A stretch of 26,981 nt of DNA from a virus: IMG/VR virus record IMGVR_UViG_3300045988_122866, positions 1 to 26,981 of that record. One strand, written 5' to 3'. This document shows, one piece after another, positions 857 to 15,000 of the stretch; the stretch's first letter is position 1; every line of letters starts with the position of its first letter. The position numbers and the translations under genes were made by a program. Under the pieces are notes generated by a model. The model searched no databases, was not told the origin of the DNA, and was given only the letters and a program-made list of their open reading frames with translations.

Positions 857-990
857 TTGCATATGGGTATACCGATCGGAAACTCGGGCCGGCACGTCCC
901 GCGACGGCCCGGCCATTATACCACATTTTCCGATCGGTGTCAATAGGTAAAATGCACAAAAAAATCAGCAGGTTTTAGTCAACCTGCTGA
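857..990 (-). promoter_or_regulatory. Leader module copy G: minus promoter (-35 about 938-943, -10 TATAAT about 915-920, TGG-extended), GC hairpin about 885-911 at the transcript 5' end, and a terminator hairpin about 966-989 for gene 999..1409
   Basis: Shares the core aaactcgg-[GC hairpin]-ccatt(t)ata(c)caca...tgtcaatag...A-run-terminator with six other copies. The plus-strand promoter is degenerate here. Confidence 0.6.
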
Positions 991-998
991 TTGAATAT

Positions 999-1409
999 TT
1001 ATGCAAGAAATGCACTTACAATTTCATCGAAAACCGTGGGGTTAATGTCCACGTTAAAAAAGCGGTCATTCTTGCGGAACGCTTTGGGGTATCGTCTAAT
1101 CAGTTCCGCACGCAACGCGCTTTCCGCACCCTCGGCGGGATAGTCCCCGCAAGAACGGATTCGATGAACTTCAACGCGCGTGATAGAATACTTTTTCGAG
1201 TATTCACCGATTTCATCACGCAAACGCCCTACAACATCTTTTGCGGAAGTGCCTACCTTGTTAAATTCAAGTTCGTCGTTGTGGTAAAACTTGAAAAAGT
1301 AAACCGCTTGTTCATTTTTCAGATTCTCGCCACAATTAGGCATAAACTCCATAGAAACGGGCGGTCTACCGTCCTTAAATCGGCGTAGCTTAATAGTAAT
1401 TTCTTCCAT
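999..1409 (-). CDS. Hypothetical protein, possibly GIY-YIG/T5orf172-like (VYFFKF...NKVGTSAKDVVGRLRD). Start at ATG 1409.
   Basis: SD GAGAGGA upstream. TAA stop. The 5' UTR contains the conserved stem-loop also found before the exonuclease gene. Confidence 0.5.
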   Translation of the reverse strand: MEEITIKLRRFKDGRPPVSMEFMPNCGENLKNEQAVYFFKFYHNDELEFNKVGTSAKDVVGRLRDEIGEYSKKYSITRVEVHRIRSCGDYPAEGAESALRAELIRRYPKAFRKNDRFFNVDINPTVFDEIVSAFLA

Positions 1410-1430
1410 TGACACAAAATCCTCTCTATT

Positions 1431-1460
1431 GATTGAGGTTTACCATCGTTCTCTCAACCA
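1431..1460 (-). repeat. Conserved 5'-UTR stem-loop element (GGTTGAGAGAACGATGGTAAACCTCAATC on the minus strand), copy 1
   Basis: About 28 nt identical to 4358-4385. Potential 7-bp stem GGUUGAG/CUCAAUC with a 15-nt loop. Sits in the leader of gene 999..1409. Confidence 0.6.
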
Positions 1461-1481
1461 TTATTTTTTGCACTTTTTTGC

Positions 1482-1517
1482 TTGTTTTTGGGTGAAAAAC
1501 CGCATTTTTCAGCGGTT
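1482..1517. terminator. Perfect 14-bp inverted repeat GGGTGAAAAACCGC-N8-GCGGTTTTTCACCC downstream of gene 1533..1940
   Basis: Read directly. T-rich on the plus side. Confidence 0.6.
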
Positions 1518-1532
1518 TTTCACCCTTTTTCA

Positions 1533-1940
1533 TCAATTTTTGGGCTTTCGCTTCTGAATCAGGGTCAATTCGTAGTCATTTTCGCCCACATGAAACGCAA
1601 TCATGCGCTCAATGTTCGTGATTTCCACATTTTCGCACGCATTTTCGCTGTTTTCACGCAAAAAAGTCGCAAGTTCAGCGATAATCGAGCGTTTTGTGGG
1701 ATTTTCCTTGCGCTGTCGCTTCTCAAATTTATAAGCGGTCGGCGCTTTGCGTGTTCCGGTCTTAGAATACTTGTTAGCTTCTTTGAGCTTTTCCGCGGAC
1801 AGGTCAAAGTCCTTGGCGATTCCATGGTCAATGTCATCATCGTCCATGAGAATTTCTTTTGCTTCCTCGGCAGTACAATCTAACTTTTTCATCAGATTAT
1901 CAATCTTTGCCTGAAAGTCCTTTTCACTCATTTTAGGCAT
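1533..1940 (-). CDS. Hypothetical early protein (135 aa)
   Basis: SD AAAGGGGG. Promoter about 1953-1990 (TTGACA-17-TATAAT, minus). TGA stop. Confidence 0.55.
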   Translation of the reverse strand: MPKMSEKDFQAKIDNLMKKLDCTAEEAKEILMDDDDIDHGIAKDFDLSAEKLKEANKYSKTGTRKAPTAYKFEKRQRKENPTKRSIIAELATFLRENSENACENVEITNIERMIAFHVGENDYELTLIQKRKPKN

Positions 1941-2008
1941 TTCTTTTGCCCCCTTTCAAGTATGATTATAACACCGCCGTCAGCAAATGTCAAGAGAAAT
2001 TTTTGGGA

Positions 2009-2038
2009 GCGCCTAATTTTTTTTAGGCGCTCCCCTTG
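2009..2038. terminator. Hairpin gggagcgccta-N-taggcgctccc with a T-run loop, terminator for gene 2041..2418
   Basis: 11-bp inverted repeat immediately after the stop. Confidence 0.6.
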
Positions 2039-2040
2039 AA

Positions 2041-2418
2041 TCAATGCGCCATGCGGAAGTAGGACTTGCGCTTGTCCACAATCTTTTCCACCTTGTTGGC
2101 GTCAATCATCTGGCGCAGAAGAGCGGAAACGCGCTGGTTGGTGAGGTCGCCCAGACCGTCCACATTCTTGATAAGGTCGGTCACGGTATACAGCTTGTCA
2201 GGATTCGCGGACAGCTCAGCAAAGATAATGTCCTTGTAGCCGTCGTTGGCAATCTGATTCGCGGTCGGCTTCTTATCACCGGCGTTCTTGCGAGACAGCA
2301 GGTCGATTTCGTGATTGATAAACTCAACCATAGCGGGGTCAGCCTGAACCTCGGACAGTTTGAGCAGAGCCTCGAAACGGTCGCGCTTGGTGAGCTTCTT
2401 AACAGTAGAAGTAGACAT
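2041..2418 (-). CDS. Winged-helix DNA-binding protein, paralog 1 (…QRVSALLRQMIDANKVEKIVDKRKSYF…)
   Basis: Paralogous to 4471..4845 with identical RBS context (aaaggaattgatactATG). Promoter about 2462-2490 (TTGACA-17-TGGTATACT). TGA stop. Confidence 0.6.
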   Translation of the reverse strand: MSTSTVKKLTKRDRFEALLKLSEVQADPAMVEFINHEIDLLSRKNAGDKKPTANQIANDGYKDIIFAELSANPDKLYTVTDLIKNVDGLGDLTNQRVSALLRQMIDANKVEKIVDKRKSYFRMAH

Positions 2419-2816
2419 AGTATCAATTCCTTTCTTTGGCGGTAGGTCGCTACCCTTTTGATATTATTGAGTATACCACATTTTAGAGGGCTTGTCAAGA
2501 GGTTTCGCAAACTTTTCACACGAATTACTACCCCGACCTGACGGATAATTTATTGTTTGTTGACTCAATCTATTTGTCAGCAAAAATGCTTCGAGGATAG
2601 TTGGTTCAATCAAACTCACTTTCACGTTCAACGTTTGGCTTTACAACGTGGTGTATTATGTTTTCTTCCTATACTTTCTCAAGGTCGCGCGCCCTCGGAT
2701 TTCTTGGGCTACTCCCTCTTGACATTTTCTATTATAACAGATTGCCCACAGATTGCAATTGACAAAATAACCAAATTACGGGAAAAAATTTTCTTCACTT
2801 TTGTGCAACTTTTCTC

Positions 2817-2963
2817 TTGACAAAATTGGCGGGGCGTGGTATAATGGAAAATTCGGACCGCTGCGTACGCTGGCGGTCCGCCCATTTTATCACAAAAATC
2901 CGCGTTTGTCAATAGTCAAAATAGACAAAAAAAACTGCCCATTTTTGGGCAGTTTTTTATTTT
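2817..2963. promoter_or_regulatory. Leader module copy A with convergent promoters. Plus promoter: TTGACA about 2817-2822, N17, TGGTATAAT about 2840-2845. GC hairpin 2854-2880 (cggaccgc/gcggtccg). Minus promoter: -10 about 2884-2889, -35 about 2907-2912. Bidirectional terminator 2935-2952 (ctgccca/tgggcag) between an A-run and a T-run.
   Basis: Both promoters have exact 17-bp spacing. The hairpin sits at about +1 of both transcripts. The overlapping track ORFs 2557..2820 and 2709..2912 are artefacts. Confidence 0.7.
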
Positions 2964-3192
2964 AGTCCAGCAGGTTAATTTCGCCGGGAATTGCGAAAGA
3001 ATCAGCGTCCAGCGTGGAATTGTAGTCCTCGGTAAAGAGTTCAATCATTCCACACTCCATGACGTAATTCTGAACCGACCGCCGAACGTTGTTCCAAAGG
3101 TCAGTTTTTCGGCTTTCCGCGCGGGCTTCCTGTATCTGGATAATGAGTTCGTCCAGTTTCTCGGCGGTCATGTAATTAAAATCCAAATCCAT
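2962..3192 (-). CDS. Hypothetical small protein (start at ATG, M3 of the track ORF)
   Basis: SD AAGGGGGAG. TAA stop. Closely follows CDS 3195..3473 as a two-gene unit. Confidence 0.5.
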   Translation of the reverse strand: MDLDFNYMTAEKLDELIIQIQEARAESRKTDLWNNVRRSVQNYVMECGMIELFTEDYNSTLDADSFAIPGEINLLD

Positions 3193-3194
3193 TT

Positions 3195-3473
3195 TCAAAA
3201 CTCCCCCTTAATGGCTTCTTTCCACGCGTCCCAGCCGAATTTTTCCTTGCTATCCAGTTCCTTGCCAATGTCTTTTGCGGTCAGCAGGTCAAGCTCGTCC
3301 GCAATTTCATCTTCAAAGTTTACCCAAGAGTCGTAGGTCTGAATAATGAAAACTTCATCAGCTTCAAAGACGCCACCGCACTCGGCGCAGATAATATAGT
3401 CATGGTCGATTAAAATACCCATGTGAGGGTCATTGTCATCAGGGACTACAAAAAGGACTTGTTTAGCGTTCAT
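3195..3473 (-). CDS. Hypothetical small CxxC-containing protein. Start at the third ATG (MNAKQVLF…).
   Basis: SD AAGAGGTG 7 nt upstream. The first two ATGs lie at or upstream of the predicted transcription start of promoter 3503-3531. TGA stop. Confidence 0.5.
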   Translation of the reverse strand: MNAKQVLFVVPDDNDPHMGILIDHDYIICAECGGVFEADEVFIIQTYDSWVNFEDEIADELDLLTAKDIGKELDSKEKFGWDAWKEAIKGEF

Positions 3474-3502
3474 GTGAAACACCTCTTTCATTTGATACAT
3501 TG

Positions 3503-3541
3503 ATTATACCATAGGGAATAGGACTTGTCAAGCCCTATTCC
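3503..3541 (-). promoter_or_regulatory. Consensus promoter (TTGACA-17-TGGTATAAT) with the -35 inside a 9-bp inverted repeat GGGAATAGG…CCTATTCCC
   Basis: Read directly. The inverted repeat also lies just downstream of the stop of the exonuclease gene. Confidence 0.65.
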
Positions 3542-3551
3542 CCTATTTTTT

Positions 3552-4328
3552 TTAGCTCATGTTTATCATGGGATTTTCCTTAATGTTTCGCATGAGCGCG
3601 CGCTGAAACTCGGTAGGCTTGGGGCGTTCCACCGTGGGAGTTTTGAAAAGGGACTTTTCCATTTCCTTGTGCTGTCGGACACAATAGCGCAGAATCTCAA
3701 CTTCAATGAGAACATCTTCTAATCCTGTGTGGGATTCATCAAAGCTGTCTTCACCGCTGATAAAGCGATAGAGAATTTCTGCGGTGAAACGGAGCTGTCC
3801 GTTCTTGGTCTTGTAGCCATTCTTTTCGCAATAGTCGCGGTAAGTGGGCATTTTGCCCATAACCTGTCGCGCCATTTTCAACGTGTCCCAAACTTCAAGG
3901 CCGTAGGGGAAGAAATAGCGATACTTGCTTTTCGTGTCCCATCTTTGCGCGTTGTTGCAGGCGTTAAGGTCGAACCGCATATTGTGAGCGCAGACAAAAG
4001 AGCAGTTATAACGCTCGACACATTCGCAGAACGCAAGACGAATTTCGTAAAGGTCAGCCATAATGCGAGTGCCGTTTTGAATGTCCTCAATGTAGCGGGG
4101 AATCTTATCGGCATAGTATGTGGACTGCATAAGGTCGCGCTCGTAGCAGAAAATGTCGCGATTCACAAAAGAATGAGTTTCATAAACATTTCCCTTGGAA
4201 TCAATGACCGCCCACCCAAAGTCGTAGGGAAGCACATTTGACATATCCAGCTTATCGCCGTCCTGAATGGTGTTTGCAGTTTCCGTGTCCAGCATAATAC
4301 CGTAGTTCCTGCGCCTATCAATACCCAT
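3552..4328 (-). CDS. DnaQ-like DEDDh 3'-5' exonuclease
   Basis: Motifs MLDTETA (Exo I), CAHNMRFDLN (Exo II) and HTGLEDV (Exo III with His). SD GGAGACG. TAA stop. Confidence 0.75.
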   Translation of the reverse strand: MGIDRRRNYGIMLDTETANTIQDGDKLDMSNVLPYDFGWAVIDSKGNVYETHSFVNRDIFCYERDLMQSTYYADKIPRYIEDIQNGTRIMADLYEIRLAFCECVERYNCSFVCAHNMRFDLNACNNAQRWDTKSKYRYFFPYGLEVWDTLKMARQVMGKMPTYRDYCEKNGYKTKNGQLRFTAEILYRFISGEDSFDESHTGLEDVLIEVEILRYCVRQHKEMEKSLFKTPTVERPKPTEFQRALMRNIKENPMINMS

Positions 4329-4357
4329 TTTATCGTCTCCTATTGGAAAAGTAGATT

Positions 4358-4385
4358 GAGGTTTACCATCGTTCTCTCAACCTCT
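4358..4385 (-). repeat. Conserved 5'-UTR stem-loop element, copy 2, in the leader of the exonuclease gene
   Basis: Near-identical to 1431-1460. Lies between promoter (TTGACA-17-TATACT about 4387-4415) and the SD. Confidence 0.6.
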
Positions 4386-4435
4386 AAATATAGTATAGCA
4401 CTTTGCTATTGGTTTGTCAATAGTTTTTTTGTAGG

Positions 4436-4466
4436 GCAGGGGATTTTTTTTATCCCCTGCCCTTTT
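4436..4466. terminator. Hairpin gggcagggga-T8-tcccctgccc followed by a T-run
   Basis: 10-bp inverted repeat just beyond the stop of gene 4471..4845. Confidence 0.6.
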
Positions 4467-4470
4467 CCCT

Positions 4471-4845
4471 TTACGCGAGGGAGAAGTAGGACTTGCGCTT
4501 GTCAACCGTCTTGACAACCGTGCCTGCATCAATCATCTGACGCAGAAGAGCAGAAACGCGCTGGTTGGAATACTCCGCAAGCTCGGGAACGCCCTTGATG
4601 AGGTCGGTCACCGTATACAGCTTGTCAAGGTTGGCGGTCATCTCGTCCAGAATGACCTGCTTCACGGCGTCATTCTCCATCTGCTTGGCCGTGGGCTTCT
4701 TGTCGCCCGCGTTCTTCTTGGCGAGCAGTTCAATCTCATGCTCGATGAACGCCACCATATCAGGATTTGCCTGAACCTCGCTCATTTTGAGCAGAGCCTC
4801 GAAACGGTCGCGCTTAGTGAGCTTCTTAGTAGTAGAAGTAGCCAT
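4471..4845 (-). CDS. Winged-helix DNA-binding protein, paralog 2. Start at M18 (MATSTTKKLTKRDRF…).
   Basis: N-terminus and RBS match paralog 2041..2418. Promoter about 4880-4915 (TTGACA-18-TATAAT). TAA stop. Confidence 0.6.
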   Translation of the reverse strand: MATSTTKKLTKRDRFEALLKMSEVQANPDMVAFIEHEIELLAKKNAGDKKPTAKQMENDAVKQVILDEMTANLDKLYTVTDLIKGVPELAEYSNQRVSALLRQMIDAGTVVKTVDKRKSYFSLA

Positions 4846-5345
4846 AGTATCAATTCCTTTCTGGTTTTTAAGACTGTCCTTGTCTATGGTAGTCATTATA
4901 TCATAGGCGGGAGTAGGTTGTCAATAGGTTTTTGCAATTTTTTTTAGGGGCGGTCGCGAGGTTTATTACTATACATCTTGTTTATACCTACCTTTATCTA
5001 TACTCTTAAACCAATTCAAAATTTACTAAGCCATTAGTTTTTAAGGCGGTGGACGAGCATCAGAAATCATCTTGTTTTTACCTCTCTCATTTGATGTATT
5101 CATTATACCCTACGTAGAACGGTTTGTCAAGGGGTTTTTCAAACTTTTTTTGAAAGTTTGTTCGGCACGCCACGCTTGGAACATTCCGTCGGATTTTGGT
5201 ATAATGGTCAAAGGAACTGCCTTTCCGCAGGTCTTACTCTTTCCTCCTGACATTATGTAGTATAGCAGATTGGTAATAATTTGTCTATTGATAAAATAAC
5301 CAAATAACGGGAAAAAATAAAATTGAAATTTGTACGAAATTTCTC

Positions 5346-5490
5346 TTGACAAAAATGCTGGCAGGGTGTATAATGGTAAATTCCGGTCGCAACATGCGTT
5401 AGCGACCGGCCAATTTTAGCACATTCAGATGGTTTTGTCAATAGTCAAAGTAAACAAAAAAATCTCCCCATTTTTGGGGAGATTTTCTTT
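5346..5490. promoter_or_regulatory. Leader module copy B. Plus promoter: TTGACA about 5346-5351, N17, TATAAT about 5369-5374. Hairpin 5383-5409 (ccggtcgc/gcgaccgg). Minus promoter: -10 about 5413-5418, -35 about 5436-5441. Terminator 5462-5483 (atctcccc/ggggagat).
   Basis: Same architecture as copy A. The hairpin stem sequence differs but pairing is preserved. Confidence 0.7.
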
Positions 5491-5747
5491 TAGCCAATCA
5501 CATTGACTTCGGTTTTGACAGGCGTTACCATCTTGTCGCGCGAGAACTCGCGAACCTGACCCGTTTCAAGATTCACCGCGTAGCAATACTGCGAACCTCT
5601 CGACCGGACAAACGGCGTGTTGTTGTTGCTGTCAATTTTGAGATACATTCCCATACCGACCCCATTGGAGCGCGGAGTGGTGAACGTGCCACCGCTGAGA
5701 ATGTTGATAATTTGAAGCTGACCCTTAGTGCCAAAATTTACTTTCAT
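5490..5747 (-). CDS. Hypothetical small protein (start at MKVNFGT…)
   Basis: SD AAGAGGGA. TAA stop. Closely follows CDS 5762..6076. Confidence 0.5.
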   Translation of the reverse strand: MKVNFGTKGQLQIINILSGGTFTTPRSNGVGMGMYLKIDSNNNTPFVRSRGSQYCYAVNLETGQVREFSRDKMVTPVKTEVNVIG

Positions 5748-5761
5748 TTTTATTCCCTCTT

Positions 5762-6076
5762 TCAAAATTCTTCTAAAAAGTGAATCGGCTTATGGTTTGG
5801 TCTGAAAAATGCCATTCCCTCGGTATAAAGAGAATTAAACAAATCTGCGGACACTTCAAACCATTCCGTGCCGCTAATGCGATTGCCTAACTCACTTAAA
5901 GTCAGATGACAAGAATTTTCCATGTCTCGACTTCCGGCGCAAGTGCTACGCATTATCGCTTTCGGATTATGGCTATAATAGCTTTTACGACGCTTTGCAA
6001 GGTTTTTAGTGCCGTCAGAATAGCCAACTTTAACCAAATGGCTATTGGTTAAATTATCCATCATCAAATACAGCAT
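5762..6076 (-). CDS. T5orf172/GIY-YIG-like domain protein
   Basis: LVKVGYSDGTKNLAKRRKSY … EWFEVS resembles the T5orf172 (MUG113) signature. SD GAGGT. TGA stop. Confidence 0.5.
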   Translation of the reverse strand: MLYLMMDNLTNSHLVKVGYSDGTKNLAKRRKSYYSHNPKAIMRSTCAGSRDMENSCHLTLSELGNRISGTEWFEVSADLFNSLYTEGMAFFRPNHKPIHFLEEF

Positions 6077-7564: not shown

Positions 7565-7708
7565 TTACCCCCTAAAAGATAAGAAATTAAGCAAAATCAG
7601 CACAGGAATAGCGTAGACGATATTGAAATAGTCCCACCCGAGACTTTCACAGGAATAAGCAAAAATAAAGCCAAAAACGAGGCCGAAAATGCCGATTAAA
7701 ATAATCAT
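7565..7708 (-). CDS. Small single-pass membrane protein (start M15). ATGA overlap with the upstream stop.
   Basis: SD GAGGAT. The start codon overlaps the TGA of 7705..7968, suggesting translational coupling. Confidence 0.45.
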   Translation of the reverse strand: MIILIGIFGLVFGFIFAYSCESLGWDYFNIVYAIPVLILLNFLSFRG

Positions 7709-7968
7709 TCTAAATCCTCTATATGACCGTAGTGTTCGTTGATATGCCATTCAAGATAGGCATTAGTCGCAATCTGAATTTCTCTATCCAGCCAGTTATA
7801 AAAATCCTCGGGGTCGCGGGCCATGCGTTCATCAATGATATCTTTGAGAGAAACGCGGTGAGCAAGGAATTCCGAAATATCAAGAGAATCCATAGAAGAA
7901 AGAAGCTCTTCCACACATTCTCCACGAGTAGAGAACTTTTCAGTAGAAAAATCGTGAGTGTAATACAT
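7705..7968 (-). CDS. Hypothetical protein (87 aa)
   Basis: Track ORF. Lies downstream of module C's minus promoter and has its own promoter at about 7990-8035. Confidence 0.5.
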   Translation of the reverse strand: MYYTHDFSTEKFSTRGECVEELLSSMDSLDISEFLAHRVSLKDIIDERMARDPEDFYNWLDREIQIATNAYLEWHINEHYGHIEDLE

Positions 7969-8087
7969 TGTTTATATCCCCTTTCCTTTACGGTAATCAT
8001 AGTATAGCAGATTATTACATTCTTGTCTATTGACAAAATGCCCAAATTCGGGAAAATAATTAGTTGGACTTTTGGCTAAATTTCCTA

Positions 8088-8240
8088 TTGACAAATTGCT
8101 GGGATGGTGGTATAATGGAATTTCCGGCCGTGGCAGGCGCAAACGGCCGGCCATTTTATCACACTATTGGATTTTTGTCAATAGGCAAAATAAATAAAAT
8201 TTTGAGACGAGATTTGGTTATCTCGTCTCAAAATATTTTT
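8088..8240. promoter_or_regulatory. Leader module copy C. Plus promoter: TTGACA about 8088-8093, N17, TGGTATAAT about 8111-8116. Hairpin 8124-8150 (ccggccg/cggccgg). Minus promoter: -10 about 8153-8158, -35 about 8176-8181. Terminator 8203-8230 (11-bp stem tgagacgagat/atctcgtctca).
   Basis: Same architecture as copies A and B. Track ORF 8064..8261 is an artefact. Confidence 0.7.
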
Positions 8241-9474: not shown

Positions 9475-9528
9475 CCTTTCCTTTTTCTATTATAATAATA
9501 TCATATTATAATAGAAATGTCAATAGAG

Positions 9529-9693
9529 AGTTTTTAATTTACTCTTTTAATTTTTCTAATAGGTCATCAACACATTCGTAGCTGATACTTCTGCGGTCGC
9601 ACTCGTTGGACAAAGGACAACACGCGCAGTCATTAAAGGTTTCCGTCCAAGCGCGCAACCAGTCAATCAAGCGCAAAGTATTAACTTCCTCAT
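9529..9693 (-). CDS. Micro-ORF, about 54 aa, Cys-rich (…NDCACCPLSNECDRRSISYEC…). Its ATG overlaps the TGA of 9690..10037. Coordinates +/-3.
   Basis: ATGA overlap with the upstream stop. Below the track's size cutoff. Confidence 0.3.
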
Positions 9694-10037
9694 ACATTGT
9701 TATCATTCTCCTTTACTCGGACAAAAAAGACCTTGTTATAGATTTTTGTTGCTTTAAGGTCAATCCAGAAATACACGTTTCCGCATACTCGATAGATTTT
9801 ACAAGTCTCTCCGCTAACCTTTTTGACTTCCTCAAATTTCTCTGGTGTTGTAGGGTGGAAAACCGTCAGTTTGAGAAATATGCAATAGAAAGCCAAAGGA
9901 ACGAAGCCGATAATCATAGCAATCCATGCGAGAACATCAGTTAAAGTGTTTTCCCATTCACACCACTCATCGGTGATTGTAGCGAACGCAATACCCACGC
10001 AAAACGCGAGAATCAACCAATACCATGCAACCATCAT
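9690..10037 (-). CDS. Membrane protein (115 aa)
   Basis: Two or three hydrophobic helices. First gene downstream of module D's minus promoter. TGA stop. Confidence 0.5.
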   Translation of the reverse strand: MMVAWYWLILAFCVGIAFATITDEWCEWENTLTDVLAWIAMIIGFVPLAFYCIFLKLTVFHPTTPEKFEEVKKVSGETCKIYRVCGNVYFWIDLKATKIYNKVFFVRVKENDNNV

Positions 10038-10141
10038 TTTAGTCCCCCTTTATTTGTTGTATACATCTTACCACATTATAGGATTTTTGTCTATTGGCAT
10101 TTTACACAAAAATTCGTGCGAAAATTTGTTGAACTTACCTC

Positions 10142-10265
10142 TTGACAAAAAACTCGGCGCGCCACAGTCGTTCGCGCGCCGACGATTTTATCACATTCAA
10201 GGAACTTTGTCAATAGTCAAAACAAATAAAAAATTCAGGCGAGATTTGGTTATCTCGCCTGAAAA
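10142..10265 (-). promoter_or_regulatory. Leader module copy D. Hairpin 10156-10180 (ggcgcgcc…gcgcgcc). Minus promoter: -10 about 10185-10190, -35 about 10208-10213. Terminator 10237-10260 (aggcgagat/atctcgcct). The plus-strand -10 is deleted.
   Basis: A TTGACA lies on the plus strand at about 10142, but no -10 follows at 17 bp. The rest of the core is conserved. Confidence 0.6.
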
Positions 10266-10493
10266 TTACACGTCCCACATGGCTTCCGCAATCCAGAAGT
10301 ATTCATAGCGGAGCTTTGACTGAATCGCAAACAAAGCGTCCGCAATTTCTCCACCGTCTCTGCGGTCTTCCACATTTGAAAATTCCTTGCTCTCTTTCGC
10401 AATTCTTTGAGCTAATTTTTCAATGGCATCTGCCTGTTCTCTCAAAGCCTGCGGGATAGGTTTTTCATTCATTATTTGTTTCCCCCTTTGCAA
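10266..10493 (-). CDS. Hypothetical protein (75 aa)
   Basis: Track ORF. SD AAAGGGGGAAAC. The TAA stop abuts module D's terminator. Confidence 0.5.
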   Translation of the reverse strand: MQRGKQIMNEKPIPQALREQADAIEKLAQRIAKESKEFSNVEDRRDGGEIADALFAIQSKLRYEYFWIAEAMWDV

Positions 10494-10618
10494 AGTTAGA
10501 GGTTAGCTCTAACGTATGTCCGCATTCATCGCAATACCAATAGTAATAAACTGTTCCATACCGGCCATGAGAAGCATTTACAAATTTCATTTCATTTCCG
10601 CAGATGGAGCAATAGCCG

Positions 10619-10822
10619 TCATTCCATGCCTTTTTTATCGGCATTGTGGTCAGCGACTACTGCGCCCGTCATACCGTAGCCAAGAGCGCACGAAATGAGA
10701 AGACCAACCAACAGTCTGACTATTGGGTGAAATTTATCCATGTTGCACCAACAGACAAGACAGACAAATAGCGCGAGGACTGCACTAAAAATTCCGCCAA
10801 CGATTAAAAATTCCATTCCCAT
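10619..10822 (-). CDS. Small membrane protein (67 aa, two TM helices)
   Basis: Track ORF. Start is coupled (TAAAAATGG) to the upstream micro-ORF. Confidence 0.5.
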   Translation of the reverse strand: MGMEFLIVGGIFSAVLALFVCLVCWCNMDKFHPIVRLLVGLLISCALGYGMTGAVVADHNADKKGME

Positions 10823-10824
10823 TT

Positions 10825-10896
10825 TTATTTCCCCTTTTCACATTTAACGCATTGAGCGTGTGTTCCGCACTTTCCATCACAATAAGGACATTTCAT
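10825..10896 (-). CDS. Micro-ORF, 23 aa, five Cys (MKCPYCDGKCGTHAQCVKCEKGK), zinc-ribbon-like. Coordinates +/-1.
   Basis: SD AAAGGGGAA. Its ATG lies 1 nt after the TAA of the preceding 38-aa ORF. Confidence 0.4.
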   Translation of the reverse strand: MKCPYCDGKCGTHAQCVKCEKGK

Positions 10897-10897
10897 T

Positions 10898-11014
10898 TTA
10901 GTTCCCCTTTCTCAGACTCTCTTCAATTTCTTCCCATTCGCTTCTGAACAATTCAATGTTCGTATTGCCGATACACTCTAAAATAGCTTTAATCTGTTCC
11001 TCAGTAAATTTCAT
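10898..11014 (-). CDS. Micro-ORF, 38 aa (MKFTEEQIKAILECIGNTNIELFRSEWEEIEESLRKGN). Coordinates +/-1.
   Basis: SD AAAGGGGAA. Promoter with hairpin-embedded -35 at about 11046-11078. Confidence 0.4.
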   Translation of the reverse strand: MKFTEEQIKAILECIGNTNIELFRSEWEEIEESLRKGN

Positions 11015-11092
11015 TTTTTTTATTCCCCTTTCCTTTGATACATTAAGTATAGCAGAAAAAGGGCTTTTTGTCAAGCCCTTTTCTTATTTTTT

Positions 11093-11455
11093 TCAATTTT
11101 CTTTTCTAATGGAGTAGTAGCTCCGACTTCCCTTTTTGGTGTAGGTCAACTTTCTGTCAATCCAGCAAAGATGACCACAATACCACGAAATAGTGGCGCA
11201 AGAATATTCCTTGCCAGTCTCACGGTAAAGAATAAACTGAATTTCCGTAGGGCGCAGGGGCTTTTCCGCCTTTGAGAGAACATCGAGCATCATGTTTTTC
11301 ATCATGGTGTTGCGGATTTCCTGTTTCAGTTTCCGCGCTTCCTGGGCTTCTTCATACTGTGAGCAAGCTCTCTCCGCGTGGATTTCATCAATTCCGGTGA
11401 AAGTGCCATTGTCAAGGAATTTCTTCAAAAGGCTATAAGTTTCAAAGTTCATCAT
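11093..11455 (-). CDS. Hypothetical protein with a C-terminal winged-helix-like segment
   Basis: …LRPTEIQFILYRETGKEYSCATISWYCGHLCWIDRKLTYTKKGSRSYYSI looks like a wHTH. TGA stop. Confidence 0.45.
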   Translation of the reverse strand: MMNFETYSLLKKFLDNGTFTGIDEIHAERACSQYEEAQEARKLKQEIRNTMMKNMMLDVLSKAEKPLRPTEIQFILYRETGKEYSCATISWYCGHLCWIDRKLTYTKKGSRSYYSIRKEN

Positions 11456-11555
11456 GTCAGTATTCCCTTTCCTTTATTGTGCTTTTATTATAGCATCTGC
11501 TTTTGAATTTGTCAAGAAGTTTTTTGGAAAAAGAGGGAAAAATTTTCCCTCTTTT

Positions 11556-11825
11556 TTACCACTTTACAGTAAGAATACCGTTTGAGTAAGAAGTGGTATA
11601 GCCATAATTCCGCAAAAGATTTTTCAGAGCTTCTTTTACAGCTTCATCTTCAATGGCAACGAGACAGCGAGACAGATAATTTTCGCCCTTTTCCGCGCGG
11701 TCTTCAATATCTTTCATCAGATTTTCTTCGAGATAGGCACGGGCCGTAGCAGTATCTTCTGCGCGCTTGGCGTCGCGAGTTTCCTTGGCGATAGTTGCTA
11801 TTTCGTGAGCATATTTAATTTCCAT
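11556..11825 (-). CDS. Hypothetical protein (89 aa)
   Basis: Track ORF. Promoter with hairpin-embedded -35 at about 11845-11889. TAA stop. Confidence 0.5.
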   Translation of the reverse strand: MEIKYAHEIATIAKETRDAKRAEDTATARAYLEENLMKDIEDRAEKGENYLSRCLVAIEDEAVKEALKNLLRNYGYTTSYSNGILTVKW

Positions 11826-11903
11826 GGTGTTTCTCCCTTTCCTTTATTGTATCTTTATTGTAGCATATAGGGCTTGTTTTGTCAAGCCCTATATACATTT
11901 TTT

Positions 11904-12212
11904 TTAACAGTAAGCCAGATTCCCGCGCGCCCAGCCATATACGCTGATTTGATTGCACGCCTTGCCAATTTCAAGCGCCTGCTTCTTGGTCTGCACCCTC
12001 TTGGACTTGTCAACATAATAGATGCCGTTCGCAAGCCATACGCCGCAGTTTCCGCCGAAGTCCTTAACCGCATTGATAGCTTCGCGTGCGGTCTTACATT
12101 CAACGCCGTTGGTAGCGACTTGCCAGCCGGACTTGTAGTTGACTTTCTTGCCATATTTGAGAGTCAGGCCGTCATTTTCAGCGAGCTTGCGAATAGAACG
12201 AATGTTAATCAT
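11904..12212 (-). CDS. Hypothetical protein (about 102 aa, start MINIRSIRKL…)
   Basis: SD AAAGGGAT. First gene downstream of module E's minus promoter. TAA stop. Confidence 0.5.
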   Translation of the reverse strand: MINIRSIRKLAENDGLTLKYGKKVNYKSGWQVATNGVECKTAREAINAVKDFGGNCGVWLANGIYYVDKSKRVQTKKQALEIGKACNQISVYGWARGNLAYC

Positions 12213-12341
12213 GTTGTTATCCCTTTCCGGTTTGGTAGGTTTTCCTTCCCTTACTGTGATTATAGTATAGCACCGATTCGGGATTCTGTCTATTGACATT
12301 ATGCACAAACTTTCGCCATAAAAATTTGTGCAATCCGCCTA

Positions 12342-12470
12342 TTGACAAAAACTCGGCGCGCCAGGTCCGTTCGCGCGCCGGCCGATTATACTACAAAGTT
12401 TTGGGACTGTCAATAGACAAAATGACAAAAAAATTCGGCAGGATTTTGTGTATCCTGCCGAATTTTTTTT
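12342..12470 (-). promoter_or_regulatory. Leader module copy E. Hairpin 12355-12379 (ggcgcgcc…gcgcgcc). Minus promoter: -10 TATAAT about 12385-12390, -35 about 12408-12413. Terminator 12434-12462 (11-bp stem ttcggcaggat/atcctgccgaa plus a T8 run).
   Basis: Same core as copy D. The terminator directly follows the TAA of 12469..12663. Confidence 0.6.
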
Positions 12471-12663
12471 AATCTTTCCAACTCTCGATGACTTCACCGG
12501 TCATTGCGTCGATAATGTCAACCGAGAGGACGTTGTCCGCGTCCATAAACTTCTGACCGAGGGCGTATGCATTTTCCTGTCCCGCGACAGACACTTCATA
12601 GCGATAATGCCCCATGTCGCCCGCCTTGTAGTTGTAGTAGTTAACAGAAACAATAAATAACAT
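12469..12663 (-). CDS. Hypothetical small protein (start MLFIVSVNYY…)
   Basis: SD AAAGGGGAT. Promoter at about 12680-12720. TAA stop. Confidence 0.5.
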   Translation of the reverse strand: MLFIVSVNYYNYKAGDMGHYRYEVSVAGQENAYALGQKFMDADNVLSVDIIDAMTGEVIESWKD

Positions 12664-12748
12664 TTGGTTTATCCCCTTTCTTTTTATACTCTTATTATAC
12701 CATAGATTCAAGATTTGTCAAGGACTTTTTTCAAGAAAGAAGCGGGGC

Positions 12749-12940
12749 TTAGTAGCCCCGCTTTTCCAAACGGTCCAGGCGTCCAGCAAGGATTCTCGCA
12801 AGAACGGGCTTTGTCCATTTCATCAGACTATCAGCAGTGCTTTGGCAGTTTGCCCAAACCTCCCAAGTTTGGCCCTCGCGAATAATGTCAGCCTTGCGCA
12901 TCTTCATGAACTTCTCGTAATACATTTCGAAAGTATCCAT
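12749..12940 (-). CDS. Hypothetical small protein (63 aa)
   Basis: Track ORF. TAA stop inside hairpin gcggggct-tagt-agccccgc. Confidence 0.5.
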   Translation of the reverse strand: MDTFEMYYEKFMKMRKADIIREGQTWEVWANCQSTADSLMKWTKPVLARILAGRLDRLEKRGY

Positions 12941-13048
12941 AACTAACCTTTCTGGTGTTTGGGATTTTCCTTTCCCTTTCTGATATTATAATACCACAGA
13001 CCGCAAAGAATGTCAAGTGTTTTTTTTCAAAAAAAAAAGAAAAGTTTT

Positions 13049-13171
13049 TCAACTTCTCTTTCTACGGCGAATCGCTCTCTTTACGCGGTGCTCCACGTAT
13101 TCGATGAGCGCACCCGCGCCGATAACACCAACATAGATAGCGAGAAGAACAAGACCATCGTGAGTAGACAT
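13049..13171 (-). CDS. Micro-ORF, about 40 aa, with one TM helix and a basic tail (MSTHDGLVLLAIYVGVIGAGALIEYVEHRVKRAIRRRKRS). Coordinates +/-2.
   Basis: SD AAGAGGTAAATCAA. Promoter with hairpin-embedded -35 at about 13205-13239. The overlapping plus-strand track ORF 13010..13432 is an artefact. Confidence 0.35.
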   Translation of the reverse strand: MSTHDGLVLLAIYVGVIGAGALIEYVEHRVKRAIRRRKRS

Positions 13172-13251
13172 TTGATTTACCTCTTTCTTTCTTTTGATGT
13201 ATTCATTATACCAAACAAAGGGGCTTTTGTCAAGCCCCTTTTTTATTTTTT

Positions 13252-13530
13252 TTACAGTTCTTTTCCAACCTTAACAAATACGATTTTCTCCGGCAAGACT
13301 TCGATGCCCTTAATGCCCGCTTCATTGACTTCCTTGTTCGTGCAAGTCCACCCAAACTCATCTAATGCGTCCCATTCACCGTTCCCACTGGGAGTCCAAG
13401 TGTTGAATCCGTCATCAATCATCACGTCATAGCCCTTGCTGTAAGTCTCCATAATCTGTTCGATAGTCATTTGTTGTATTCCCCTTTCCTTTGATGATAC
13501 TATTATAGCATTTCGGGATAGGAATGTCAA
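13252..13530 (-). CDS. Hypothetical protein (92 aa)
   Basis: Track ORF. Promoter at about 13495-13530 (TGTCAAG … TATAAT). TAA stop. Confidence 0.5.
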   Translation of the reverse strand: MTFLSRNAIIVSSKERGIQQMTIEQIMETYSKGYDVMIDDGFNTWTPSGNGEWDALDEFGWTCTNKEVNEAGIKGIEVLPEKIVFVKVGKEL

Positions 13531-13653
13531 GTGGTTTTTGGCAAAAAATGGAAAAAATTTTGCTTTAACGCTTTACTGTGGTAAAGTTCGGGCTGGGACG
13601 CCCTACACGCGCACAACGGCGTAAGAGAAAGAGCGGGAAGCCCGCTCCCGCCC

Positions 13654-13863
13654 TTAATACATTTCGCTACTGGGTTCAACTGTGAAATACTCAACATTCC
13701 GCAAGTCGAGCTTGCCATAGGACTTGTCATTATACATTGTAGCACCTGTCGCAAGTAAGTCATTCATCTTACCTGCAATCTCCATAGCGCGCTGTTCCTC
13801 GAACGCCTGCTGGAAGAGATAGCCCTGACCGCCCTTAGTGTAATAAACAATGCCGTAAATCAT
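13654..13863 (-). CDS. Hypothetical protein (69 aa)
   Basis: SD AAAGGGGAA. Terminator gagcggg-aag-cccgctc follows the TAA. Overlapping track ORF 13527..13763 rejected. Confidence 0.5.
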   Translation of the reverse strand: MIYGIVYYTKGGQGYLFQQAFEEQRAMEIAGKMNDLLATGATMYNDKSYGKLDLRNVEYFTVEPSSEMY

Positions 13864-13993
13864 TTTTCATTCCCCTTTCCTTTTGTGATTATAGAATACC
13901 ACATTCTAACTGATTTGTCAAGACCTTTTTGCAAAAAATCTTTGTTAATTTTTTAACAATCTACGCCGTTAGGAAGGGAGCATTACTGCTCCC

Positions 13994-14326
13994 TTATTCT
14001 GCGTAAAGACTCATCAATTCATTTATCTTATCAATGGCTTCATCAATGTCATCGAGGTAGTTGTCTGCCAACATACTTGCATGGCTGGCTTCCTCGTAGT
14101 CATCATACGCGTCGCTGAGTTCCTGTGTGCCAAACTTGTCTGCCTGTTCGAGGGCGTCTACCTCGTGCCATGCCCTCGACATCTCACCACGCTTAACCTG
14201 ACAGTCGCGGAACGCCTGCTTGCTTTCGTTCATTAACCGTTCCTTTTCAGCTTTGAGAGCCTTGTAAAAATCCTGATTAGTCATTTGAGTATTCCCCTTT
14301 CTTATTGTATCTACATTGTAGCACAT
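13994..14326 (-). CDS. Hypothetical acidic protein (110 aa)
   Basis: Track ORF. Promoter at about 14340-14375. Terminator gggagca-ttac-tgctccc after the TAA. Confidence 0.5.
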   Translation of the reverse strand: MCYNVDTIRKGNTQMTNQDFYKALKAEKERLMNESKQAFRDCQVKRGEMSRAWHEVDALEQADKFGTQELSDAYDDYEEASHASMLADNYLDDIDEAIDKINELMSLYAE

Positions 14327-14413
14327 TACCGCGCATTTGTCAAGACCTTTTTTACTCTTCTCTGCTTGTTAATTTTTTAACAATCTTCGCCGATCCGCAA
14401 GAAAGAGAGAGAC

Positions 14414-14779
14414 TTAATAAGCCTCTCTCCATACCTTAATGATTGTATCATCTTCCACAGTATCAGTGTCATTGTCGTTAATCCACAAGAGCAAGAAGTC
14501 GTTGTCATCAATGTTGAGTGCTTCCACGTCCCACAGGTTGCCCTGCTCATCAATGAGCGTCAGGGTATCGCCCTCGCGTGCGTAGACCTCTGCGCCGACG
14601 AAACGAATACTTCCGCGTTCCGTGCCTGCACCGCACCAATTCTCAATGACCGAGAGGTCGTAGGACTGGGGCGCTTCCTCACAGGCTTCCGCGGTTGTGT
14701 GGTCGTGGAGTGGAGTGAAAAGAGATGCGCAGAGAATGATGCCAAGAGCGATGGTGATGATTTTGGAAACGTTTTTCAT
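14414..14779 (-). CDS. Secreted or lipoprotein-like protein with an N-terminal signal peptide
   Basis: MKNVSKIITIALGIILCASLF… then an acidic domain. Promoter at about 14795-14845 (TTGACA-17-TATACT). TAA stop. Confidence 0.5.
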   Translation of the reverse strand: MKNVSKIITIALGIILCASLFTPLHDHTTAEACEEAPQSYDLSVIENWCGAGTERGSIRFVGAEVYAREGDTLTLIDEQGNLWDVEALNIDDNDFLLLWINDNDTDTVEDDTIIKVWREAY

Positions 14780-14929
14780 TTTGATTTACCTCTTTCTTTT
14801 TGATGATACAAGTATAGCACATGGCTACTGGATTGTCAATAGTCATTTTGCACAAATGTGATGGCGTGGTTTCGGGTATTTTGACGATTGTGCATTATGA
14901 CGAAGTTTCGGCGAGAAATTTGTGCAAAC

Positions 14930-15000
14930 TGCTGATTTTTATAAAACTCGGCTCGCCACTACCGCCAGCGAGCCGAGCAACGTTTACCGGGGTGTTTATG
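14930..15000. promoter_or_regulatory. Degenerate leader-module copy F: aaactcgg plus a 10-bp-stem hairpin 14948-14977 (ctcggctcgc/gcgagccgag). No intact flanking promoter.
   Basis: Shares the aaatttgtgcaa…aaactcgg-hairpin context with copies D and E. The conserved -10 box is absent. Confidence 0.4.

What the first reader, a model, noticed from the sequence alone, without database searches (positions are those of the whole stretch)
857..15000. A leader module of about 150-230 bp recurs seven times at about 2-2.8 kb spacing, with a covarying 5' hairpin
Copies lie at about 857-990, 2817-2963, 5346-5490, 8088-8240, 10142-10265, 12342-12470 and a degenerate one at 14930-15000. Each has four parts: the terminator of the upstream gene; a minus-strand TTGACA-N17-TGnTA(T/A)AAT promoter whose -10 lies in the conserved box CCATTTTATCACA; a GC-rich hairpin placed at the transcript 5' end; and the conserved flank aaactcgg. 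The hairpin stems differ completely between copies (cggaccgc, ccggtcgc, ccggccg, ggcgcgcc, cgggccg, ctcggctcgc) yet always pair, with 10-13-nt loops. Seven paralogs with compensatory change point to selection on RNA or cruciform structure rather than sequence. The hairpins may be put-like antitermination elements, 5'-end stability elements or protein-binding sites.
Basis: seen in the sequence. Interest (0 to 1): 0.85.

Follow-up and report, generated by a model that had tools for sequence, protein, structure and literature searches.

The report
Polar hairpin cassette between phage operons
A 27-base GC-rich hairpin recurs between the early operons of this uncultured gut phage and 70 other fetched stretches of related phage DNA, always in the same orientation relative to the genes and often with strong promoters set against it at fixed distances, so it looks like a compact operon-boundary device rather than a simple mRNA leader.

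Summary
Seven 27-nt GC-rich hairpins lie at the stated places. Six have a minus-strand consensus promoter 2-4 nt away, and pairing is kept while stem sequences change.

- Copies 2-4 also carry a perfect plus-strand, antisense promoter 7-8 nt from the other side of the hairpin. Copies 5-6 keep only its -35 box.
- A further sense promoter lies about 120-150 nt downstream, next to the gene.
- The element belongs to a large family in uncultured phages related to phAss-1.

In that family the hairpin is strictly polar: 77 of 77 covariance-model hits that could be oriented lie opposite to the coding strand. It sits just after an operon's terminator. Its downstream tail is U-rich in the gene sense only. 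38 of 107 copies have no abutting promoter.

Where promoters abut, the spacing is bimodal and tied to orientation. Sense promoters sit 2-4 nt away, so the predicted start falls inside the stem. Antisense promoters sit 7-9 nt away, so the start falls at the stem base.

Best reading (confidence 0.42): a back-up terminator or insulator at operon boundaries whose stem also forms the base-paired 5' end of transcripts from the abutting promoters. A put-like antitermination role is not supported. Function is untested, because no transcript data exist.

The parts
885..911 (.). GC hairpin, copy 1 (27 nt)
2854..2880 (.). GC hairpin, copy 2 (27 nt)
5383..5409 (.). GC hairpin, copy 3 (27 nt)
8124..8150 (.). 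GC hairpin, copy 4 (27 nt)
10155..10181 (.). GC hairpin, copy 5. In the gene (minus) sense it is followed by AGTTTTTTG.
12354..12380 (.). GC hairpin, copy 6. In the gene sense it is followed by AGTTTTTG.
14949..14975 (.). GC hairpin, copy 7. It stands alone with no abutting promoter and is 27/27 conserved in relatives L132 and L178.
915..943 (-). Sense promoter B of copy 1 (-35 at 938-943, -10 at 915-920). The -10 ends 3 nt from the stem.
2884..2912 (-). Sense promoter B of copy 2 (TTGACA-N17-TAAAAT). The -10 ends 3 nt from the stem.
5413..5441 (-). Sense promoter B of copy 3. The -10 ends 3 nt from the stem.
8153..8181 (-). Sense promoter B of copy 4. The -10 ends 2 nt from the stem.
10185..10213 (-). 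Sense promoter B of copy 5. The -10 ends 3 nt from the stem.
12385..12413 (-). Sense promoter B of copy 6. The -10 ends 4 nt from the stem.
2817..2845 (+). Antisense promoter A of copy 2 (12/12 consensus, with TG). The -10 ends 8 nt from the stem, and it faces promoter B.
5346..5374 (+). Antisense promoter A of copy 3 (12/12 consensus). The -10 ends 8 nt from the stem.
8088..8116 (+). Antisense promoter A of copy 4 (12/12 consensus, with TG). The -10 ends 7 nt from the stem.
10142..10147 (+). Antisense -35 box only (TTGACA), 7 nt from the stem of copy 5. Spacer and -10 are absent.
12325..12347 (+). Antisense upstream element plus -35 box only (TTTGTGCA-N6-CTATTGACA), ending 6 nt from the stem of copy 6. 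There is no -10.
963..992 (.). Terminator T1 of the operon upstream of copy 1
2929..2958 (.). Bidirectional terminator T1 upstream (gene sense) of copy 2
5456..5489 (.). Terminator T1 upstream of copy 3
8199..8234 (.). Bidirectional terminator T1 upstream of copy 4
10234..10263 (-). Terminator T1 upstream of copy 5
12427..12469 (.). Bidirectional terminator T1 upstream of copy 6
776..804 (-). Downstream sense promoter of copy 1. A further one lies at 637-665, before gene 605..228.
2731..2758 (-). Downstream sense promoter (P_down) of copy 2. No credible ORF follows for about 200 nt.
5259..5287 (-). P_down of copy 3 (TAGACA-N17-TATACT). No credible ORF follows for about 120 nt.
8001..8029 (-). 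P_down of copy 4, followed by a ribosome-binding site and gene 7968..7705
10065..10093 (-). P_down of copy 5, followed by gene 10037..9690
12264..12292 (-). P_down of copy 6, followed by gene 12212..11904
14811..14839 (-). Sense promoter downstream of copy 7, followed by gene 14779..14414

Best explanation
The hairpin is the core of a polar boundary cassette between the early operons of a clade of uncultured, TAG-recoding gut and rumen phages related to phAss-1.

Shown:
- The hairpin always has one orientation relative to the genes.
- It lies just downstream of the upstream operon's ordinary terminator (T1).
- Its stem co-varies, and its downstream flank is U-rich in the gene sense only.
- Promoters of one distinctive class (TTTGTGCA-N6-CTATTGACA-N17-TATAAT) are set against it at two fixed distances. 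An antisense promoter (A) has its -10 7-9 nt from the other side.

Inferred mechanism:
- In the gene sense the hairpin acts as a second, back-up intrinsic terminator or insulator (T2). It catches read-through from the upstream operon. This is strong in copies 5-6, where a U-run follows, and weaker in copies 1-4.
- Transcripts from B should start 2-4 nt inside the 5' arm. They would carry only a shortened stem that is no longer next to the U-tract. They would therefore escape T2 and begin with a base-paired 5' end, which in Firmicutes should slow 5'-end-dependent decay.
- Transcripts from A should start 0-3 nt before the stem and carry the full hairpin as a 5'-terminal stem-loop. In this window they should stop at the bidirectional T1, giving an antisense RNA of about 105 nt.
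- A and B face each other, with predicted starts about 25 nt apart. They cannot both be occupied, so in copies 2-4 the consensus promoter A should interfere with B.
- The gene-proximal promoter P_down, about 120-150 nt further on, should be unaffected.
For: Anatomy in the window.

Family: 183 promoter-hairpin junctions in 71 sources (70 fetched loci plus this window).

Spacing between -10 and stem is bimodal, at 2-4 and 7-9 nt. Spacing class predicts orientation: the 7-9 nt class is 81 antisense to 4 sense, and the 2-4 nt class is 49 sense to 2 antisense.

Covariance-model hits: 107 distinct, and 77 of the 77 that can be oriented lie opposite to the coding strand. 38 have no promoter.

Hairpins sit after the last ORF of an operon. 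57 of 80 have a canonical terminator within 160 nt upstream, usually 5-20 nt away, and a few have none, so the hairpin is the only stem after the stop codon.

The gene-sense tail has 3.97 T in 8 nt. Composition predicts 2.18, and the opposite sense has 1.74. Copies 5 and 6 read stem-AGTTTTTTG and stem-AGTTTTTG.

Promoter-less copy 7 is 27/27 conserved.

Covariation. Fold energies.

Established knowledge: a 5'-terminal stem-loop with few unpaired 5' bases protects mRNA (Emory 1992 and Hambraeus 2002, as listed in PMC3997798). Convergent promoters interfere with each other (PMC5423467, PMC3675496).
Against: No transcript ends are known; every start site is inferred from the -10 position.

Loops of 7-11 nt are large for an intrinsic terminator. 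The gene-sense tail of copies 1, 3 and 4 has only 2-3 T in 8 nt.

T1 already precedes most copies, so T2 would seldom be transcribed in the sense direction.

A plain terminator does not explain the fixed 27-nt length, the nearly invariant pairs 6 and 7, the strand-biased loop, or why a consensus antisense promoter should sit against it.

In most relatives T1 is not a terminator in the antisense direction (6 of 53). There the antisense RNA would run into the upstream operon, and its purpose is unexplained.
Confidence: 0.42

Rival explanations
1. The hairpin is a 5' leader element of the sense (minus-strand) promoter. It would act either as a 5'-terminal mRNA stabiliser or as a put-like element that makes RNA polymerase resistant to downstream terminators.
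For: Six of seven window copies have a strong sense promoter within 2-4 nt. The stem co-varies. 5' stem-loops are known to stabilise mRNA (PMC3997798).
Against: Only 34 of 107 family members have a sense promoter, and 38 have none at all. Copy 7 has none yet is perfectly conserved. The predicted start lies inside the stem. Every copy has a further sense promoter between the hairpin and the next gene. The element is a single 27-nt hairpin rather than put's two-stem RNA, and no Rfam family matched.
Confidence: 0.13
2. The cassette exists for the antisense promoter. The hairpin would be the protective 5' cap of a cis-antisense RNA, similar to lambda oop. That RNA pairs with, or collides with, transcription of the upstream operon's 3' end, or of the facing sense promoter. 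The result would be control of early gene dosage or shut-off.
For: The antisense promoter is near-perfect consensus (TATAAT in 94 of 107). It sits at the spacing that puts +1 at the stem base. Nearly every antisense promoter of this class has the hairpin. In the window it would give a discrete RNA of about 105 nt ending at a bidirectional terminator.
Against: Only 40 of 107 hairpins have an intact antisense promoter. Window copies 5-7 lack one. In relatives the antisense RNA has no terminator of its own. No target effect can be tested here.
Confidence: 0.17
3. The element acts at the DNA level or is a by-product of evolution. The hairpin would be the centre of a palindromic promoter cassette that spreads and recombines like the T4-type PeSL cassettes. 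Alternatively it would be a polar DNA site used on single-stranded DNA, for nicking or priming. Pairing would then be kept by gene conversion or template switching rather than by RNA function.
For: The face-to-face module is a long imperfect palindrome. Cassettes lie at the borders of a 2.5-kb duplication and near indels between close relatives. In L173 the copy matching window copy 3 has taken on the stem of the copy-4 homologue. Hairpins change faster than their flanks. The early region is otherwise built from PeSL-like units.
Against: The two arms are asymmetric (2-4 against 7-9 nt) in a way tied to gene direction. Loop and flanks are strand-biased. Stems of 8-10 bp with 7-11-nt loops are poor cruciforms (established knowledge). 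Stand-alone copies are conserved.
Confidence: 0.1
4. The hairpin is a specific binding site for a phage or host factor. The factor would recognise the conserved apical part (pairs 6-7 plus the loop), as RNA or as DNA. Candidates are a termination or antitermination factor, or a processing or decoy target. The abutting promoters would serve only to produce the site or to respond to it.
For: Total length is fixed at 27 nt in 58 of 158 copies, the modal value. Pairs 6 and 7 are C-G and G-C in 59-60 of 61 sequences, while the outer pairs change freely. Loop k-mers are strand-specific, for example GGAC 14 against 1 and GACC 16 against 2. The same loop occurs with different stems.
Against: No candidate factor was identified. 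Loop consensus is weak (at most 0.8 bits per position). Shared ancestry of the copies could give the same pattern.
Confidence: 0.13

Closest known systems
PeSL (promoter-early stem-loop) composite terminator/promoter cassettes of T4-type phages (PMC2839356, PMC4122927)
   Same: Both are short conserved regulatory cassettes repeated at the borders of small early genes in a plastic region. Both combine a stem-loop with a host-type early promoter, and both are linked with indels. Ordinary promoter units in this window, where the terminator loop carries the next -35, fit the PeSL layout.
   Different: In a PeSL the stem-loop lies just upstream of the promoter. Here the GC hairpin lies at or after the start site. 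It is flanked by convergent promoters at two fixed spacings, is strictly polar, and often stands alone. The phage lineage and host phylum are also different.
Tandem or back-up intrinsic terminators at the ends of strongly expressed operons
   Same: The element is a GC-rich stem-loop a few bases after a first terminator, at the operon end, with a U-enriched tail in the sense direction only.
   Different: The loops are 7-11 nt, the U-tract is often poor (AAUUUUCC), the length is fixed with a partly conserved apex, and promoters are set against both sides.
5'-terminal stem-loop mRNA stabilisers (E. coli ompA, B. subtilis aprE leader; review PMC3997798)
   Same: A stable hairpin is predicted to begin within 0-3 nt of the transcript 5' end for promoter A. 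For promoter B the 5' end is predicted to be base-paired.
   Different: The best-placed promoter is antisense to the genes. A third of the copies have no promoter. No half-life data exist.
Face-to-face promoters with transcriptional interference (coliphage 186 pR/pL; PMC3675496, PMC5423467)
   Same: In copies 2-4 two convergent promoters have overlapping transcripts and overlapping polymerase footprints, and their consensus quality is unequal.
   Different: The predicted starts are only about 25 nt apart, against 62 bp in phage 186. A hairpin is shared between them. The arrangement is repeated many times per genome in a lytic-type early region, and no repressor is known.
Short cis-antisense RNAs at gene 3' ends (lambda oop; Shigella RnaG, PMC2879508)
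   Same: A promoter points at the 3' end of the upstream operon. In the window it should give a short RNA ending at a terminator.
   Different: The arrangement is repeated at many operons. In most relatives the antisense RNA has no terminator of its own. The target and the effect are unknown.
HK022 put antitermination RNA
   Same: It is a promoter-proximal RNA structure in a phage early region.
   Different: Here there is a single 27-nt hairpin and not a two-stem RNA. Most copies are not in a sense transcript. There is no sequence or Rfam similarity.

Membership tests
Intrinsic (Rho-independent) terminator | GC-rich stem-loop in the transcript | tested here: met
   Stems are 8-10 bp and nearly all G-C, folding at -17 to -20 kcal/mol.
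Intrinsic (Rho-independent) terminator | U-rich tract directly 3' of the stem in the direction of transcription | tested here: inconclusive
   The gene-sense tail averages 3.97 T in 8 nt, against 2.18 expected and 1.74 in the other sense. Window copies 5 and 6 have 6 and 5 T in 8 nt. Copies 1, 3 and 4 have 2-3 T in 8 nt.
Intrinsic (Rho-independent) terminator | Short loop (about 3-8 nt) | tested here: not met
   The commonest loop lengths are 9 and 11 nt. Folding predicts 2-3 extra inner pairs in some copies.
Intrinsic (Rho-independent) terminator | Lies at the 3' end of a transcription unit | tested here: met
   Hairpins follow the last ORF or the T1 terminator of an operon.
Intrinsic (Rho-independent) terminator | Transcripts end there | not testable with these tools
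   No RNA data are available.
PeSL cassette (T4-type phages) | Stem-loop immediately upstream of an early sigma-70-type promoter, which is followed by a ribosome-binding site and a start codon | tested here: not met
   The GC hairpin lies downstream of promoter B and of promoter A, at their start sites. The definition comes from PMC4122927.
PeSL cassette (T4-type phages) | Repeated at gene-cassette borders in a plastic early region and linked with indels between close relatives | tested here: inconclusive
   The element is repeated at operon borders. Indels next to the T1 terminators of copies 4 and 6, and a 2.5-kb duplication, are seen. Junctions were not mapped to the hairpin itself.
5'-terminal stem-loop mRNA stabiliser | The stem begins within a few nt of the transcript 5' end | tested here: inconclusive
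   This is inferred only from the distance between -10 and stem: 7-9 nt for A and 2-4 nt for B. No start sites have been mapped.
5'-terminal stem-loop mRNA stabiliser | The element is on the mRNA of the gene it protects | tested here: not met
   This fails for most copies. 38 of 107 have no promoter, and 27 of 107 have an intact antisense promoter and no intact sense promoter.
5'-terminal stem-loop mRNA stabiliser | It lengthens RNA half-life | not testable with these tools
   This needs decay measurements.
HK022 put antitermination RNA | A two-stem RNA of about 65-70 nt | tested here: not met
   There is a single 27-nt hairpin, and no Rfam family reached even E = 0.1 there.
HK022 put antitermination RNA | Lies in the sense transcript upstream of the terminators to be overridden | tested here: not met
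   Most copies have no sense promoter upstream of them other than the preceding operon's, and they follow its terminator.
Face-to-face promoter interference (phage 186 pR/pL type) | Two convergent promoters whose transcripts overlap | tested here: met
   By sequence, in copies 2-4. The -10 hexamers are 36-38 bp apart, so the predicted starts are about 25 nt apart. There are 24 such pairs in the family.
Face-to-face promoter interference (phage 186 pR/pL type) | Measured reduction of one promoter by the other | not testable with these tools
   This needs reporter assays.
cis-antisense RNA (lambda oop type) | A promoter antisense to the 3' end of the upstream gene, with its own terminator giving a discrete RNA | tested here: inconclusive
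   Met in the window, where T1 is bidirectional next to A. Only 6 of 53 relatives have a T1 that could terminate in the antisense direction.

The most novel reading that the evidence does not exclude
The cassette is a previously undescribed phage timing or insulation device in which one hairpin is shared by three functions.
- It terminates read-through from the previous operon.
- A sense promoter starts inside its stem, with +1 G or C, and so bypasses it.
- A stronger antisense promoter starts at its base, with +1 A or U, and competes for the same DNA.

A factor that recognises the conserved apex (pairs 6-7 and the loop), or the cell's initiating-nucleotide levels, would decide which polymerase wins. 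That decision would set whether and when each early operon is boosted. The device would be widespread in TAG-recoding phages of gut Firmicutes.
Probability: 0.2. Interest if true: 0.8.

Novelty: new variant of a known kind. Interest (0 to 1): 0.6.

Why it matters
The parts are ordinary: sigma-A promoters, stem-loops and terminators. Their fixed, polar assembly is the unusual feature, and it recurs in at least 70 other fetched loci from uncultured phage contigs. In this assembly a sense promoter starts inside a terminator stem and a consensus antisense promoter starts at the stem's base.

I found no description of this assembly. The phAss-1 genome paper does not mention promoters, hairpins or terminators. 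No cultured phage in the reference set carries it.

If the inferred logic holds, it would be:
- a compact natural design for insulating operons that are driven by very strong promoters;
- a handle on early-gene control in a phage clade that has no cultured host;
- a sequence signature for finding the early regions of such phages in metagenomes.

Tried and rejected
- **Megablast to reference phages.** Bases 1-15000 gave no match. Relatives were found only through a protein and through DNA patterns.
- **Rfam and tRNA scans.** Nothing relevant was found.
- **First pattern scan.** The pattern (-10 plus TGTCAATAG) was too general and returned mostly unrelated contigs. The second pattern (TGTCAATAG-N6-TGCACAAA) worked.
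- **Bacterial genome scan.** The hit count was near chance expectation. Only 12 of 120 loci held a cassette, mostly in Clostridia MAG contigs, so there is no firm host call.
- **A discrete small RNA from promoter A.** This holds in the window but not in general. T1 is rarely a terminator in the antisense direction.
- **Cassettes travelling with paralogous genes.** Rejected. Only one paralogue pair exists among 34 early ORFs.
- **G-U against A-C mismatch counts to tell which strand is the functional RNA.** There were too few mismatches, and my selection step was biased.
- **Cruciform bringing a -35 and a -10 into register in copies 5 and 6.** The remaining spacer would be about 12 nt, so this was rejected by reading the sequence.
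- **The 410-aa + strand ORF as a target of the antisense promoters.** It has no homologues, and the minus-strand genes it overlaps are supported.
- **Literature searches.** Searches for antisense promoters in SPO1-like and Herelleviridae early regions gave nothing applicable.

Full report
**Context**

The window comes from an uncultured phage. A 368-aa protein at 24957-26063 is 50-58% identical to proteins of Phage phAss-1 and of a human faecal contig, and about 40% identical to proteins of large Enterococcus phages. phAss-1 belongs to the "Caudoviricetes code 15 clade".

Bases 1-15000 form a minus-strand early region with 42-46% GC. It holds about 40 near-consensus sigma-A promoters (TTGACA-N17-TGnTATAAT), strong ribosome-binding sites and small ORFs. 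From about 15000 the GC content falls to about 30%. The + strand genes there read as long ORFs only if TAG is translated.

**Check of the observation**

The seven copies exist, with 27-nt hairpins at 885-911, 2854-2880, 5383-5409, 8124-8150, 10155-10181, 12354-12380 and 14949-14975. They fold at -17 to -20 kcal/mol.

Six copies have a minus-strand consensus promoter whose -10 ends 2-4 nt from the stem. Each of these is preceded by a terminator-like hairpin, here called T1.

The region has 16 GC-rich hairpins, against 1.7 in Markov-random sequence.

Small corrections:
- Copies 5 and 6 share a stem.
- The flank aaactcgg occurs in four copies only.
- Copy 7 has neither a promoter nor a T1.

- Copies 2, 3 and 4 carry a perfect 12/12 promoter on the + strand, at 2817-2845, 5346-5374 and 8088-8116. 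Its -10 ends 7-8 nt from the other side of the hairpin. It faces the minus-strand promoter and is antisense to the genes.
- Copies 5 and 6 keep only this promoter's upstream element and -35 box, placed directly against the hairpin. Copy 1 has a degenerate remnant.
- Every copy is followed, about 120-150 nt further in the gene direction, by another sense promoter (P_down). In five of the seven copies P_down lies next to a ribosome-binding site and the gene; copies 2 and 3 have no credible ORF behind it.
- The promoters set against the hairpin, and P_down, share an extended signature: TTTGTGCA-N6-C(T/A)AT(T/A)GACA. The other early promoters lack it.

**The family**

Pattern scans of IMG/VR recovered the same arrangement in many contigs of 20-200 kb. 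In 2.09 Mb of fetched DNA, 183 promoter-hairpin junctions occur in 71 sources (70 fetched loci plus this window).

The distance from the -10 to the stem is bimodal, at 2-4 nt and 7-9 nt. This distance predicts orientation relative to the local genes:
- The 7-9 nt class ("A") is antisense in 81 cases and sense in 4.

The architectures found among these junctions were:

| Architecture | Count |
|---|---|
| A only | 82 |
| B only | 31 |
| A and B face to face | 24 |
| B with a facing -35 box only | 17 |
| A with a facing -35 box only | 8 |

Total hairpin length peaks at 27 nt.

On 61 distinct 27-mers, 96% of cells pair. All eight pairs show changes on both sides, in 106 cells against 31 in shuffles. 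Slid registers pair at 28-43%. These sequences were chosen for pairing, so only the double changes count as evidence.

Pairs 6 and 7 are almost invariant, and loop composition is strand-biased.

A covariance model built from this alignment found 107 distinct hits in 0.82 Mb of related loci. All 77 hits that could be oriented lie with the same strand opposite to the genes. 38 have no promoter or -35 box against them.

Stand-alone copies sit between T1 of one operon and the promoter of the next. The flank downstream in the gene sense is U-enriched, at 3.97 T in 8 nt. The expected value is 2.18, and the other sense has 1.74.

57 of 80 antisense-promoter cassettes have a canonical terminator within 160 nt upstream, usually 5-20 nt away. 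A few have none, so the hairpin is the only stem after the stop codon.

**Close relatives**

L173, L186, L132 and L178 are syntenic with the window and 91-96% identical to it.

The hairpins of copies 1-3 differ from their counterparts more than the flanks do: 67-85% identity against 93-99%. Both arms have changed and pairing is kept.

In L173 the copy that matches window copy 3 carries the stem of the copy-4 homologue, which points to exchange between copies.

Copies 4, 6 and 7 are identical or nearly so. Copy 7, which has no promoter, is 27/27 identical.

**Interpretation**

The constant features are the hairpin, its polarity, its place after T1 and its sense-only U-rich tail. The promoters are frequent additions at two exact spacings.

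The reading that fits most of these facts has three parts:
- **Back-up terminator or insulator (T2).** In the gene sense the hairpin would catch read-through from the upstream operon. This is convincing for copies 5 and 6, where stem-AGUUUUUUG and stem-AGUUUUUG follow, and weak for copies 1, 3 and 4.
- **Sense promoter B.** The usual 7-nt distance from -10 to +1 puts its start 2-4 nt inside the 5' arm. Its RNA would then have a shortened stem that is no longer adjacent to the U-tract. It would escape T2 and begin base-paired.
- **Antisense promoter A.** Its +1 would fall 0-3 nt before the stem, giving a full 5'-terminal stem-loop.

5'-terminal stem-loops are an established protection against 5'-end-dependent decay (PMC3997798).

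Where A and B face each other, their footprints overlap. Interference is therefore expected, as known for convergent promoters (PMC5423467, PMC3675496).

In the window the antisense RNA should end at the bidirectional T1, at about 105 nt. In most relatives T1 would not stop it, and its role there is unexplained.

All start sites and all effects are inferred.

**Rivals**

This fails on the family statistics and on copy 7.
- **A put-like element.** The element has the wrong size and usually the wrong position, and nothing in Rfam matches.
- **An antisense-RNA-centred function.** This explains the exact spacing of A but not the 67 of 107 copies that lack an intact A promoter.
- **A DNA-level or recombination by-product.** This is suggested by the palindromic layout, the exchange between copies and nearby indels. 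It does not explain the polar asymmetries.
- **A specific factor binding the conserved apex.** This would explain the fixed length and the invariant pairs, but no candidate factor was found.

**Comparison with known systems**

The nearest described thing is the PeSL composite terminator/promoter cassette of T4-type phages. There the stem-loop lies upstream of the promoter. The ordinary promoter units of this window follow that layout, but the GC hairpin cassette does not.

I therefore treat it as a new variant of known kinds: composite phage regulatory cassettes, tandem terminators, 5' stem-loops and convergent promoters. It is not a member of any one of these.

I found no description of it. 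The phAss-1 paper is silent on promoters, hairpins and terminators. Apart from phAss-1 itself and unannotated faecal contigs, no reference phage carries the promoter-hairpin signature.

Noticed in passing
window 16354-24004 (+ strand): These genes read as long, tightly packed ORFs (351, 395, 579, 118, 520 and 525 aa) only if TAG is translated. Each has 2-9 in-frame TAG codons. GC content drops from about 0.44 to about 0.30 at around 15000. The early minus-strand genes do not need recoding. This fits the code-15 phAss-1 clade.
   Followed up: partly
window 13217-13241, 11057-11082, 11865-11894, 8739-8753: The ordinary early promoters are composite units like the T4-type PeSL cassettes. The terminator hairpin of the upstream gene carries the -35 TTGACA of the next promoter in its loop. 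There is a repeat family of ten 70-nt copies.
   Followed up: partly
window 1988-2962 and 4415-5491: This is a segmental duplication at 73-78% DNA identity with an offset of 2.4-2.5 kb. It includes hairpin copies 2 and 3 and the only paralogous gene pair (2418..2041 and 4845..4471, 72% aa identity).
   Followed up: yes
window 15155-15303: Two copies of a 64-nt repeat (91% identical, 85 nt apart) lie in the AT-rich spacer between the early region and the recoded genes. Its function is unknown.
   Followed up: no
window 6045-7277 (+ strand): A 410-aa ORF runs antisense to three minus-strand genes that have their own promoters. One of those genes has HAD/polynucleotide-kinase-phosphatase similarity. 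The long ORF has no Pfam or PHROG match and is probably spurious, but it is unusually long for chance.
   Followed up: partly
window 8239-8691 (- strand): A 150-aa early protein has an AbrB/MazE-type DNA-binding domain (Pfam E = 3e-10, PHROG antitoxin E = 1e-19). It lies directly upstream of cassette copy 4. It is a possible regulator, but this was not tested.
   Followed up: no
window 2519-2730 and 5140-5258 (- strand): The gene-proximal promoters of copies 2 and 3 are followed by about 200 nt and about 120 nt with no credible ORF. These stretches may be non-coding leaders or decayed genes.
   Followed up: partly
window 7036-7575, compared with L173 2139-2200: The close relative L173 lacks this stretch, which holds one promoter-plus-gene unit. 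The stretch is bounded by direct repeats at 7002-7067 and 7364-7429. This looks like an indel mediated by the repeated promoter units.
   Followed up: partly
L208 about 2864-2950, L159 about 4440-4493, L182 about 3953-4000; window half-sites at 12302-12309 and 12325-12332: TTTGTGCA is the upstream half-motif of the cassette promoters. In related loci it also occurs as a palindrome, TTGTGCA-N3-TGCACAA, next to stand-alone hairpins. This looks like an operator for a dimeric regulator.
   Followed up: no
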